Shown piece after piece: positions 3,001 to 6,000 of a stretch of DNA of 64,000 nt. The stretch comes from Escherichia coli O157:H7 (GTDB taxonomy: Bacteria; Pseudomonadota; Gammaproteobacteria; Enterobacterales; Enterobacteriaceae): assembly GCF_013167455.1 (NCBI RefSeq), contig NZ_CP038328.1; one strand, given 5' to 3'. Each line of letters starts with the position of its first letter. The first letter of the stretch is position 1. The position numbers were made by a program.

Positions 3001-6000
3001 ATGAAAAGGAAGGTAACCACACCACAGCATACCGTGATGGTGCGGGTATCTGGACCATCTGCCGTGGAGCCACCCGGGGGGATGGTAAGCCTGTTATTCC
3101 TGGCATGAAGCTGTCGAAGGAAAAATGCGACCGGGTTAACGCCATTGAGCGTGATAAGGCGCTGGCATGGGTGGAGAAAAACATCAGAGTGCCGCTGACC
3201 GAACCCCAGAAAGCGGGGATCGCGTCATTCTGTCCGTACAACATTGGCCCCGGTAAGTGTTTCCCGTCGACGTTTTACAGACGGATTAATGCAGGAGATC
3301 GAAAAGGTGCCTGCGAAGCGATTCGCTGGTGGATTAAGGACGGTGGCAGGGACTGCCGTATTCGCTCAAATAACTGTTACGGTCAGGTATCCCGTCGTGA
3401 CCAGGAGAGCGCGCTGGCGTGCTGGGGAATCGACAGATAAGCAGAATATTTTGCTGAAAAATGAGGTTTGCTTACATGGACGGATAACACGAAATCCTGC
3501 AAATTGGCAAAATGTAAGTGAATAAAGTCAAAGCAGTTGTTTAACACTCAGGCACCGTAATGATGCCTTTGTCATTTCTGCGCATCTCACGCGCATCTCA
3601 CAACACAGAACCTTTCAGGATGACCCTTGAGGATACCGGTTTGGCTGTCGGTGCCTTTCTGTGGGCTGGATTCCTGTGAGACAAGGTTCATCACTAAAAG
3701 GAAATAACCGATGAATATGATGGCCGTGCCGTTTCACGGCAACTCTCTTTATGTAGTTAACCATAATGGCGAACCATACGTTCCCATGAAACCTGTCGTT
3801 GCGGGGATGGGGCTGGCCTGGCAATCACAGTTGGCTAAGTTAAGACAGCGTTTTGCGTCAACTATAACGGAAATCGTTATGGTTGCTGAGGATGGGAAAC
3901 AACGCAATATGGTGTCCATGCCACTTCGAAAACTTGCCGGCTGGCTACAAACCATTAATCCCAACAAAGTAAAACCCGAAATCCGCGATAAGGTCATCCG
4001 GTATCAGGAAGAGTGCGACGATGTTCTTTACGAGTACTGGACGAAGGGTTTTGTCGTTAATCCCCGTAAAATGAGCGTGATGGAAGAACTCAACCAGGCT
4101 TGTGCTGACATGAAACGGGATAAAAACATTGCCAGTGTGTTTGCTACCGGGCTGAATGAGTGGAAACAGGTTAAAGCCGCGCATGTATCAAAAATCCGTA
4201 CGCTGGTAAATGAAGCGAATATGCTGATTGATTTTGTCCTGGCTGATACAGGCAAAGGGAAAATAACAAAGGCGGATTGATGGGGTGGCTAATGATATCA
4301 GATAAACTCATAACGCTGGTGAAGAGCCTCTGTGTACTTGCCGGCATTTCATTTTCACTAATGCTGGTTGCTCTTTTTCTTTCCATGGCCTGGATGGCGT
4401 TGACTTCGGCAGGGCTGGTGGGGTGAGCATAAACCGAATGCTTTCCGCGTTTACCGTTATTCTGCTGGTGGTCTGTGGTGCGCTTAGTCTGGGGCTGAAT
4501 CATTACCGCGATAACGCCATAACCTACAAAGAGCAGCGCGATAAAAAAGTCAGTGAGCTGGAGCTGGCAAATGCAACCATTACTGATATGCAGCAGCGCC
4601 AGCGTGATGTTGCTGCACTTGATGCCAGATACTCGAGGGAATTAGCTGATGCGAGAGCTGAAAATGAAACTCTGCGTGCTGATGTTGCCGCTGGTCGTAA
4701 GCGCCTGCGCATCAACGCCAACTGTCCAGGCTCCTTGCGTAAAGCCCCCATCACCTCCGGCGTGGATAATGCAACCGGTCCCCGACTGGCAGAAGCCGCT
4801 GAACGGGATTATTTCATCCTCAGAGAACGGCTGATGGCAATGCAGAAGCAACTGGAAGGAGCACAGGAATATATCCGTACCCAGTGTATACCGTGATGTT
4901 TTGTTACGAAGGTGTTACTGGTAACGTTAAGGTAATTTAACAAAGAGTCAGTTCCGGACTTTATAGTGTGCTCAGTTCATGGCCAAAAACGATTTCTGTG
5001 ATAAATATTTTGAATATTATTTACAGGTAAATGGAGTGGGGCACATGGATAGAAATATTACAATAGAGTATGAAGTATATGCCCGTATTGTATGGGCAGA
5101 GAAGGCAAAAACATGGTAATTCCGTGTGTTGCCATGATACCTGATTGGCAGAATTGTTGTTTGGTTTTGAGTATATAGTCAGCGTCTTTTGTTCGGTAAT
5201 TGCTCTTTCAATTAAAATGCCAGATATGATTTGCTTTTCTTTGTTGTTTAGTTTTTTTGTATATTATTTTTATTGTTTTTATATAATTAGTTTTTTATTG
5301 TTGTCTTATTAAGGACGGTAAATTCAGGATGGCAGTCTGTAGATAAACGGAGGTTACTTATGCTACATGATCACCTGGCAGAATGTCTGGAGAAAAAAGG
5401 ACTGTACCGGAGAGCAGCTGAACGATGGGCAAAAGTGATGGTACAGCTAAGTGATGACCAGAAAAGAAAAGTGGCGGCACAGAAACGAGCAGAGTGTTTG
5501 CGTAAGGCGCGCCGGACTCCGGTTTCACCGGTGAACCTGACCGAAATAAAACAAGCGGTCAACAGACTACATTCTGAGTTGGGAATGGGATTTGAAGAGC
5601 GGCGGGTATTCCGACGATATAAAGGGACAGGAGAACAGAATACGTCCGGAAACGCGCGGTCAAAAAAATGCTAAAAAATATCTGAGAGCGTTATTGCCTG
5701 TTACCATAAGAAAAAGCGACTTTAGTGGTCGCTTTTTGTGTCATATATAAGTCGTTTAAGTAAACCTGTCTGAACAGGTTCTCTGGTCGTGTTTGTCTTT
5801 GTTGGGTACAAATTGAGAATATTTTTCATTAATTAATCTTCTTCTGCAGGCTTCAATAACCCACGCTGAAAAATTTCCTGAACCTTTCAGATCAAGAGCG
5901 ATGTTAATTTGTTCAATCATCTGGTTTGGAAATCGGATGTTGCGGGTTGTTGTTCTGCGGGTTCTGTTCTTTGATGACATAATGTTGCCCCATATTCAGT

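What the first reader, a model, noticed from the sequence alone, without database searches (positions are those of the whole stretch)
4900..5359. Strongly AT-rich ~450-bp leader with long T-runs upstream of the pch-like gene
The region between Rz and the pch-like start is extremely AT-rich, with runs such as tttgttgtttagtttttttgtatattatttttattgttttt. This is typical of an H-NS-silenced, horizontally acquired regulatory region and suggests the pch-like gene has its own environmentally controlled promoter rather than being read through from the late operon.
Basis: seen in the sequence. Interest (0 to 1): 0.3.

Follow-up and report, generated by a model that had tools for sequence, protein, structure and literature searches.

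The report
Upstream control region of EHEC pchB
The AT-rich stretch is real, but it is the already studied upstream control region of pchB, a prophage-borne virulence regulator gene of E. coli O157:H7, so it is ordinary rather than new.

Summary
Observation confirmed. The 463-bp spacer 4897-5359 lies between Rz (4423-4896) and a 104-aa PerC-family gene (5360-5674). It has 33% G+C against 51% for the window. Its core, 5225-5310, has 15% G+C and 69% T and holds the lowest-GC 90-bp stretch in the 64 kb.

The locus is pchB of E. coli O157:H7. It is 831/831 identical to Sakai ECs_2182 with its upstream DNA. The spacer occurs in 672 of 5426 complete E. coli genomes, usually three copies each (pchA/B/C).

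Interpretation partly supported.
- Own regulated promoter: supported. Published work uses this whole spacer as "PpchA". In Sakai the pchA copy sits in a block inverted relative to late transcription. Two promoter-like hexamers with a fixed 17-bp spacing are conserved islands inside a core that is otherwise hypervariable but always AT-rich.
- No transcription start could be found. "Leader" is probably a misnomer, because the predicted 5' UTR is only about 30-50 nt.
- H-NS silencing: plausible from composition only. H-NS motifs are not enriched beyond composition, predicted curvature is moderate, and no occupancy data were found.
- "Rather than read-through" is a false choice. pchB lies in the late operon's path, and published SOS RNA-seq fits added read-through.

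The small ORFs and any structured RNA were rejected. Novelty: already known.

The parts
4423..4896 (+). Rz spanin gene, last gene of the lysis cassette, with Rz1 embedded at 4649-4834
   Evidence: Pfam Phage_lysis E 1.3e-46 and Rz1 E 4.1e-19; annotated 'lysis protein' in RefSeq
4897..5359 (.). AT-rich Rz-pchB intergenic spacer (463 bp, G+C 0.33): the finding
   Evidence: Composition; unannotated in RefSeq; identical to the DNA upstream of Sakai pchB
4897..5200 (.). Upstream block (G+C 0.37), 95-98% identical among pchA/B/C and A25 haplotypes; function unassigned, possibly regulator-binding DNA
   Evidence: No coding signal and no supported RNA structure
5201..5315 (+). T-rich core (G+C 0.20), hypervariable between paralogues (about 70% identity pchB vs pchA) but AT-rich in every haplotype; holds the candidate promoter elements
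5273..5278 (+). Candidate -35 hexamer TTGTTT of promoter P1
   Evidence: Exact hexamers and 17-bp spacing kept in 78 of 86 copies; conserved island in the core; PWM score only 8.6. Inferred, no TSS data
5296..5301 (+). Candidate -10 hexamer TATTGT of P1 (predicted start near A5308, 5' UTR about 52 nt); overlaps the -35 of alternative P2
   Evidence: Among the most conserved hexamers inside the core; variant TATTAT in 2 copies. Inferred
5319..5324 (+). Candidate -10 hexamer TAAATT of alternative promoter P2 (-35 TTGTTG at 5298-5303). The spacer is 15 bp in pchB but 16 bp, with TTGTTA, in pchA/pchC. Predicted 5' UTR about 29 nt
   Evidence: Inferred
5282..5287 (+). Perfect TATAAT hexamer present only in the pchB haplotype (no good -35); possible pchB-specific start
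5349..5353 (+). Shine-Dalgarno GGAGG, 6 nt before the ATG. Two pchB-specific substitutions flank it, at 5347 and 5355
   Evidence: Sequence; alignment
5360..5674 (+). pchB, 104-aa PerC-family activator of the LEE1/ler promoter
   Evidence: Pfam PerC E 5.4e-44; 100% identical to Sakai ECs_2182; diagnostic nucleotides at CDS positions 16/172/183
5711..5737 (.). Bidirectional intrinsic terminator (11-pair stem flanked by an A run and a T run) shared by pchB (+) and the convergent DUF3950 gene (-)
   Evidence: RNA fold, centroid -14.7 kcal/mol, z -2.35; missed by the pattern scan
5756..5980 (-). YlcI/YnfO (DUF3950) family gene, convergent with pchB
   Evidence: Pfam DUF3950 E 1.8e-18; RefSeq annotation
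6180..6191 (+). Lambda-type cohesive-end site GGGCGGCGACCT (cos), followed by the terminase small subunit gene at 6367-6912
   Evidence: Sequence compared with the lambda left end from my own knowledge; terminase annotation
4979..5119 (+). 46-codon ORF inside the spacer: judged not a gene
   Evidence: 4 synonymous and 24 non-synonymous distinct substitutions (expected synonymous fraction 0.18), against 13 and 9 in pchB; no Pfam hit; only 'hypothetical protein' in older GenBank records

Best explanation
The spacer is the upstream control region of pchB, one of three near-identical prophage-borne PerC homologues (pchA/B/C) that activate the LEE1/ler promoter in enterohaemorrhagic E. coli. The pchB unit behaves as a moron, an add-on unit of AT-rich upstream DNA, gene and terminator inserted between Rz and cos of a lambdoid prophage. 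A weak sigma-70-type promoter lies in the last 40-90 bp of the T-rich core: either TTGTTT-17 bp-TATTGT at 5273-5301, or TTGTTG-15 bp-TAAATT at 5298-5324. It would start a short (about 30-50 nt) 5' UTR. The T tracts and the roughly 300 bp further upstream would serve as UP-element-like and regulator-binding DNA, and by their composition as a likely H-NS target. This gives lysogen-state expression that depends on host regulators. When the prophage is induced, Q-modified late transcription from upstream must also run through pchB, so the two modes add rather than exclude each other. Shown here: identity of the locus, its composition, the terminator, the conservation pattern, and the absence of a coding or structured-RNA signal. 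Taken from the literature: independent regulated transcription of pchA/pchB. Inferred: which hexamers are used, the start site, and H-NS binding.
For: Identity: 831/831 to Sakai pchB with its upstream DNA. Distribution: 672 of 5426 genomes, median 3 copies, always full length beside a PerC gene, with no diverged relatives. Moron architecture: low G+C; terminator at 5711-5737; a related O157 prophage has Rz followed by the terminase genes with no pch gene between them. Own promoter: the published 'native promoter PpchA' fragment begins at the equivalent of 4861 and spans the whole spacer; LrhA and butyrate/Lrp control of pchA/pchB; Sakai pchA is inverted relative to Q and late genes, between IS629 and ISEc8. 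Footprint: the core is about 70% identical between the pchB and pchA types while its flanks are 98-99.7% identical, yet TATTGT, TTGTTT and the 17-bp spacing are kept in 78 of 86 copies and the core stays at G+C 0.20-0.30. Read-through: all genes from the window start through the terminase are on the + strand, and group 1 pch genes rise with stx after SOS induction.
Against: No experimental start site for any pch gene could be retrieved; the key papers (Honda 2009, Nakanishi 2006 and 2009, Melson and Kendall 2019) were not held. The consensus scan finds no promoter in the spacer. My PWM candidates score only 8.6-9.6, and the window + strand has 45 candidates scoring 9 or more and 87 scoring 8 or more. 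P1 and P2 cannot be told apart. The H-NS motif is not enriched over composition-matched shuffles (P 0.31 and 0.46) and curvature is only moderate. The published hns deletion experiment does not separate PpchA from PLEE1. Most published promoter work concerns pchA, whose core differs from that of pchB.
Confidence: 0.8

Rival explanations
1. pchB has no promoter of its own in this prophage. The AT-rich spacer is only a compositional relic of the DNA that brought the gene in, and pchB is transcribed only as part of the Q-dependent late transcript on induction.
For: pchB is co-oriented with the lysis genes with no intrinsic terminator between them. No strong consensus promoter is present. Group 1 pch transcripts rise after SOS induction.
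Against: Sakai pchA has about 91% the same spacer but is inverted relative to late transcription, and it is still described as a major LEE activator. The spacer is used as a working native promoter on a plasmid. LrhA and butyrate regulation of pchA/pchB are reported in uninduced cultures. Hexamers and spacing are conserved inside a hypervariable core.
Confidence: 0.07
2. Most of the spacer is a long transcribed 5' leader, starting at a promoter just after Rz (for example TTAACA-19 bp-TATAGT at 4937-4967), that controls pchB after transcription through RNA structure or sRNA binding.
For: That far-upstream candidate is conserved in the four haplotypes scanned. The 4897-5200 RNA folds slightly better than shuffles (z -2.3). 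pchA mRNA is known to be controlled at the SD by an intramolecular structure and DicF.
Against: The 19-bp spacing is poor. There are no Rfam hits. Across 32-52 unique sequences, 30-40 predicted pairs have pair-breaking variants against 1-7 with compensatory changes. The published DicF mechanism involves the SD and the coding region, not a long leader.
Confidence: 0.08
3. The spacer encodes a small protein: the 46-aa ORF at 4979-5119 or the 55-aa T-rich ORF at 5145-5312.
For: Both ORFs are open, and both appear as 'hypothetical' or 'putative membrane protein' in older GenBank records. The 46-codon ORF has no internal stop in the 50 unique sequences that keep its length.
Against: 4 synonymous and 24 non-synonymous distinct substitutions, as expected for neutral change (expected synonymous fraction 0.18). 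3 sequences have length changes. pchB shows 13 and 9. There is no SD before the first ATG, no Pfam hit, and RefSeq drops both ORFs. The 55-aa ORF lies in the hypervariable, indel-rich core.
Confidence: 0.03

Closest known systems
pchA/pchB/pchC regulatory regions of E. coli O157:H7 Sakai (group 1 pch; Iyoda and Watanabe 2004; Honda et al. 2009; Nakanishi et al. 2009)
   Same: The window copy is base-for-base the Sakai pchB (ECs_2182, prophage Sp11) upstream region and CDS. It has the same position between Rz and cos and the same 104-aa PerC-family product.
   Different: Nothing in the locus itself. The rest of the window's prophage differs from Sakai Sp11, because it ends next to uspF-ompN-MicC-nifJ. 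Most published promoter work is on pchA, whose T-rich core is only about 70% identical.
Phage morons (for example bor and lom of lambda): add-on transcription units in lambdoid prophages
   Same: It is an extra unit inserted between genes that are neighbours in related phages. It has deviant low G+C, its own terminator, and literature support for expression from the repressed prophage.
   Different: The promoter is not mapped here. The unit is co-oriented with late transcription, so it is also expressed on induction.
H-NS-silenced horizontally acquired virulence promoters (for example LEE1/ler, and perA upstream of perC on the EPEC EAF plasmid)
   Same: There is a block of several hundred bp at 67% A+T with T tracts directly upstream of a virulence regulator gene. 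The product, Pch, itself counteracts H-NS at LEE1.
   Different: I found no H-NS occupancy or hns-mutant data for a pch promoter. The nucleation motif is not enriched beyond composition and predicted curvature is unremarkable.

Membership tests
Group 1 pch locus, pchB allele | 104-aa PerC-family CDS with the pchB-specific bases at CDS nt 16, 172 and 183 | tested here: met
   Pfam PerC E 5e-44. The alignment shows C16, G172 and C183, identical to Sakai pchB. The diagnostic positions are as stated in PMC5931665.
Group 1 pch locus, pchB allele | Upstream spacer of the pchB haplotype | tested here: met
   463/463 identical to Sakai ECs_2182 upstream. The pchA and pchC haplotypes differ in the core.
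Group 1 pch locus, pchB allele | Position between Rz and cos/terminase of a lambdoid prophage | tested here: met
Phage moron | Inserted between genes that are adjacent in related phages | tested here: met
   The O157 prophage in L008 has Rz, then one small reverse-strand ORF, then terminase, with no pch. A25 and others have Rz-pch-YlcI-terminase.
Phage moron | Nucleotide composition distinct from the surrounding phage genes | tested here: met
   Spacer G+C 0.33 against 0.51; lowest 0.75% of windows.
Phage moron | Own transcription terminator | tested here: met
   Hairpin at 5711-5737 with flanking A and T runs, -14.7 kcal/mol, z -2.35.
Phage moron | Own promoter active in the lysogen | tested here: inconclusive
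   Only weak hexamer matches, although they are conserved with fixed spacing. Literature supports it for pchA/pchB. No TSS data were available.
H-NS-silenced xenogeneic promoter region | Extended A+T content well above the genome average | tested here: met
   67% A+T over 463 bp and 85% over 86 bp.
H-NS-silenced xenogeneic promoter region | High-affinity nucleation motif (TCGATAAATT-like) or strong intrinsic curvature | tested here: not met
   Motif matches equal composition-matched shuffles (P 0.31 and 0.46). The best site, ACGGTAAATT at 5315, matches 8 of 10. Curvature averages 11.5 degrees against a window mean of 8.6, and no peak is among the window's top 12. The motif and wedge parameters were recalled from memory.
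H-NS-silenced xenogeneic promoter region | H-NS occupancy in vivo and derepression in an hns mutant | not testable with these tools
   The Sakai H-NS ChIP-chip paper and its held supplements give no pch-specific result. The hns deletion in the butyrate sensor does not separate PpchA from PLEE1.
Structured 5' leader, riboswitch or sRNA | Match to a known RNA family, or covariation-supported structure | tested here: not met
   Rfam found nothing relevant. 30-40 predicted pairs have pair-breaking variants against 1-7 with compensatory changes. The predicted 5' UTR plus CDS start folds with z -0.1 and -0.8.

The most novel reading that the evidence does not exclude
The T-rich core may be a composition-constrained but sequence-free 'tuning cassette'. 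Selection would keep only extreme A+T richness, two hexamers and their spacing. Replacement of the rest, together with poly-T length changes in the promoter spacer (16, 17 or 18 bp), would set different expression levels and H-NS sensitivity for the three paralogues. Pch might also bind its own AT-rich upstream DNA to displace H-NS and give positive feedback.
Probability: 0.15. Interest if true: 0.4.

Novelty: already known. Interest (0 to 1): 0.15.

Why it matters
[quoted passage not shown] That is established biology, and this window adds no new element to it. The modest additions here are comparative. The promoter-proximal core is the one part of the locus that differs sharply between pchA, pchB and pchC while staying AT-rich. 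A specific pair of conserved hexamers is proposed as the promoter. Independent transcription and late-operon read-through should be treated as additive.

Tried and rejected
- Consensus promoter and terminator scan: no promoter in the spacer, and it missed the real terminator at 5711-5737 because the stem extends into the T tail.
- Rfam, permissive and gathering thresholds: only chance microRNA and lncRNA hits near cos, plus MicC far away.
- Phage database: a single 3-kb unannotated record.
- Distant blastn against E. coli genomes: no diverged relatives, so no deep phylogenetic footprint is possible.
- Literature: the papers that should hold the start site and footprints (Honda 2009, Nakanishi 2006 and 2009, Melson and Kendall 2019, Yang 2009, Iyoda 2005) are not held.
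- Supplements of the H-NS ChIP-chip paper: no pch entries.
- Small ORFs: rejected by substitution pattern.
- Structured RNA: rejected by lack of covariation.
- DicF-mRNA duplex prediction with whole sequences gave unrealistic full-length duplexes and was discarded.
- Identifying the window with strain TR01 or 17B6-2 over its full length failed, because the prophage is a mosaic.

Full report
**The observation**

The window has Rz at 4423-4896 (Pfam Phage_lysis, E 1.3e-46), with Rz1 embedded at 4649-4834. A 104-aa PerC-family ORF lies at 5360-5674 (E 5.4e-44). The 463 bp between them (4897-5359) has G+C 0.33, against 0.51 for the whole window. Only 0.75% of all 463-bp windows are as low. The lowest-GC 90-bp stretch of the 64 kb starts at 5210. 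Segment 5225-5310 has G+C 0.15 and 69% T on the + strand, with T runs of 7, 5, 5 and 6.

**Identity of the locus**

Megablast finds the spacer in 672 of 5426 complete E. coli genomes. It is always full length, with a median of three copies per genome, and is 100% identical in many O157:H7 strains. RefSeq annotates nothing inside it. A more sensitive blastn adds no diverged copies.

I fetched the three Sakai paralogues: pchA (ECs_1091, Sp4), pchB (ECs_2182, Sp11) and pchC (ECs_2737, Sp14). The window is 831/831 identical to pchB across the Rz end, the spacer and the CDS. It carries the pchB bases at the three positions (16, 172, 183) that distinguish the group 1 pch genes, as stated in PMC5931665.

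The neighbourhood also matches Sakai Sp11: antirepressor, a 147-nt ORF, Rz, pch, a convergent YlcI/YnfO (DUF3950) gene, a lambda-type cos sequence and the terminase genes. The cos assignment rests on my own knowledge of the lambda left end. The rest of the prophage is a mosaic and ends next to uspF-ompN-MicC-nifJ.

**Architecture**

- pchB is followed by a hairpin at 5711-5737: 11 pairs, with an A run before it and a T run after it, -14.7 kcal/mol, z -2.35. It can terminate both pchB and the convergent DUF3950 gene. The pattern scan missed it.
- A related O157 prophage has Rz followed by terminase with no pch gene between them.
- Low G+C, its own terminator and insertion between otherwise adjacent phage genes are the hallmarks of a moron.

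**Is there an independent promoter?**

No start-site data could be retrieved, so the evidence is indirect.

1. [quoted passage not shown] Its cloning primer begins with GCACAGGAATATATCCGTACC, which is window 4861-4881. "PpchA" is therefore the whole Rz-pch spacer.
2. Papers report that LrhA directly activates pchA and pchB, that butyrate acts on pchA through Lrp, and that sigma S and NtrC affect pchA.
3. In Sakai Sp4 the holin-lysin-Rz-pchA block lies inverted between IS629 and ISEc8, antisense to Q and the late genes. pchA therefore cannot be late read-through there, yet it is described as a principal LEE activator. This is an inference from annotation.
4. Comparative sequence gives a footprint. 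I aligned 86 copies (53 unique) from IMG/VR, Sakai and strain A25.
   - Between the pchB and pchA types, the upstream block 4897-5200 is 98% identical and the CDS 99.7%.
   - The T-rich core 5201-5315 is only about 70% identical. It has 0.78 distinct substitutions per site, against 0.07 in the CDS.
   - The core nevertheless stays at G+C 0.20-0.30 in every haplotype.
   - Inside it, the most conserved hexamers are TATTGT (5296-5301), ATTAAG (5308-5313) and TTGTTT (5273-5278).
   - TTGTTT-17 bp-TATTGT is kept exactly in 78 of 86 copies, even where the spacer between the hexamers is replaced (A25 has GGAGGGGAGAG there).

That pattern is what a sigma-70 promoter (P1) would leave. P1 predicts a start near A5308 and a 5' UTR of about 52 nt.

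An overlapping alternative, P2, uses TTGTT(A/G) at 5298-5303 and TAAATT at 5319-5324. Its spacer is 16 bp in pchA and pchC but 15 bp in pchB. P2 predicts a 5' UTR of about 29 nt.

pchB alone also has a perfect TATAAT at 5282-5287.

All candidates are weak. My PWM scores are 8.6-9.6, and the window + strand has 45 candidates scoring 9 or more. The stricter consensus scan reports none in the spacer. Weak core elements would fit an activator-dependent promoter. The assignment remains an inference.

**Read-through**

All genes from the window start through the terminase are on the + strand. No intrinsic terminator lies between Rz and pchB. In lambdoid phages the Q-modified late transcript runs from the lysis genes across cos into the head genes (established knowledge). 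pchB must therefore also be transcribed on induction.

Published RNA-seq after SOS induction fits this. Assignment of reads by SNP gave pchC up about 8-fold, pchB about 3-fold (not significant) and pchA unchanged. I did not check the orientation of pchA in that strain.

**H-NS**

The only positive evidence is composition.

- Matches to the 10-bp high-affinity motif (recalled from memory as TCGATAAATT) are 2.4-3.3 times denser than the window average.
- They are no more frequent than in shuffles of the spacer itself (P 0.31 and 0.46).
- A wedge-model curvature profile (parameters from memory) averages 11.5 degrees against 8.6 for the window. Local peaks reach the 97th-98th percentile, but none is among the window's 12 strongest.
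- The Sakai H-NS ChIP-chip paper and its held supplements report nothing specific for pch promoters.
- The hns deletion needed for the butyrate sensor does not separate PpchA from PLEE1.

H-NS targeting is likely from general knowledge of H-NS preference for AT-rich foreign DNA, but it is unproven here. Preservation of A+T richness despite sequence turnover in the core is compatible with a composition-dependent function such as H-NS binding or UP-element-like contacts.

**Alternatives tested**

- The 46-codon ORF (4979-5119) and the 55-codon ORF (5145-5312) appear as hypothetical proteins in older GenBank records.
- The 46-codon ORF shows 4 synonymous and 24 non-synonymous distinct substitutions. 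The expected synonymous fraction is 0.18. pchB shows 13 and 9. The 46-codon ORF is not under protein-level selection.
- Rfam gives nothing relevant.
- The upstream block folds slightly better than shuffles (z -2.3). Across 32-52 unique sequences, however, 30-40 predicted pairs have pair-breaking variants against 1-7 with compensatory changes.
- The predicted 5' UTR plus CDS start is no more stable than shuffles.
- The known post-transcriptional control of pchA (SD sequestered by a coding-region anti-SD and opened by DicF) involves only the last few bases of the finding.
- A simple duplex calculation pairs the SD region with CDS nt 140-168. It suggests the two pchB-specific substitutions next to the SD weaken that pairing by about 2.7 kcal/mol. 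This is only a lead.

**Verdict**

The feature is real and is the known pchB upstream control region on an O157:H7 lambdoid prophage. It is wrong in three respects. It calls the whole region a leader. It opposes the gene's own promoter to read-through. It treats H-NS silencing as shown. Novelty: already known. Interest is low.

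Noticed in passing
window 5201-5315 (and L003, L005, L006, L009-L088): The T-rich core falls into discrete haplotypes (pchB, pchA and pchC types plus rarer ones). These are about 70% identical to each other, between flanks that are 96-99.7% identical. Some copies combine a pchC-type core with a pchB-type CDS, which suggests cassette-like recombination among paralogues.
   Followed up: partly
L012 (IMG/VR), aligned to window about 5260-5295: One copy lacks about 39 bp of the core, including the candidate -35, and has TATTAT instead of TATTGT. Five other copies have a P1 spacer of 16 or 18 bp through poly-T length changes. These are either real promoter variants or homopolymer assembly errors.
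   Followed up: no
window 4979-5119 and 5145-5312: There are two small ORFs inside the spacer (46 and 55 aa), which older GenBank records annotate as hypothetical or putative membrane proteins. The substitution pattern of the 46-aa ORF is neutral.
   Followed up: yes
window 5711-5737: A strong bidirectional terminator hairpin lies between the convergent pchB and DUF3950 genes. The pattern scan missed it because the stem runs into the T tail.
   Followed up: yes
window 6283-6347: A long perfect inverted repeat (GGTCCGACATGAAA ... TTTCATGTCGGACC) lies between cos and the terminase small subunit gene. It scored as a chance microRNA hit on both strands in Rfam. It resembles the large inverted repeat that lambda has at the same place (my own knowledge).
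   Followed up: no
window 3711-4280: A P22-type antirepressor gene (P22_AR_N and ORF11CD3 domains) sits inside the lysis cassette between the lysozyme gene and Rz, followed by a 147-nt ORF.
   Followed up: no
window 32309-32429: MicC sRNA (Rfam 125 bits) marks the chromosomal flank (uspF-ompN-MicC-nifJ) just beyond three nleG-type (DUF1076) effector genes at the prophage end. This pchB prophage therefore sits at a different chromosomal junction from Sakai Sp11, which points to prophage mosaicism or rearrangement.
   Followed up: partly
L003 32131-39827 (Sakai Sp4): The holin-lysin-Rz-pchA block of Sp4 is inverted between an IS629 and an ISEc8 copy, which uncouples pchA from the late promoter.
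   Followed up: partly
window 5347 and 5355: Two pchB-specific substitutions flank the Shine-Dalgarno sequence (A for T, and T for C). They lower the predicted SD to coding-region pairing energy from -20.0 to -17.3 kcal/mol relative to pchA. This could make pchB less dependent on DicF.
   Followed up: partly
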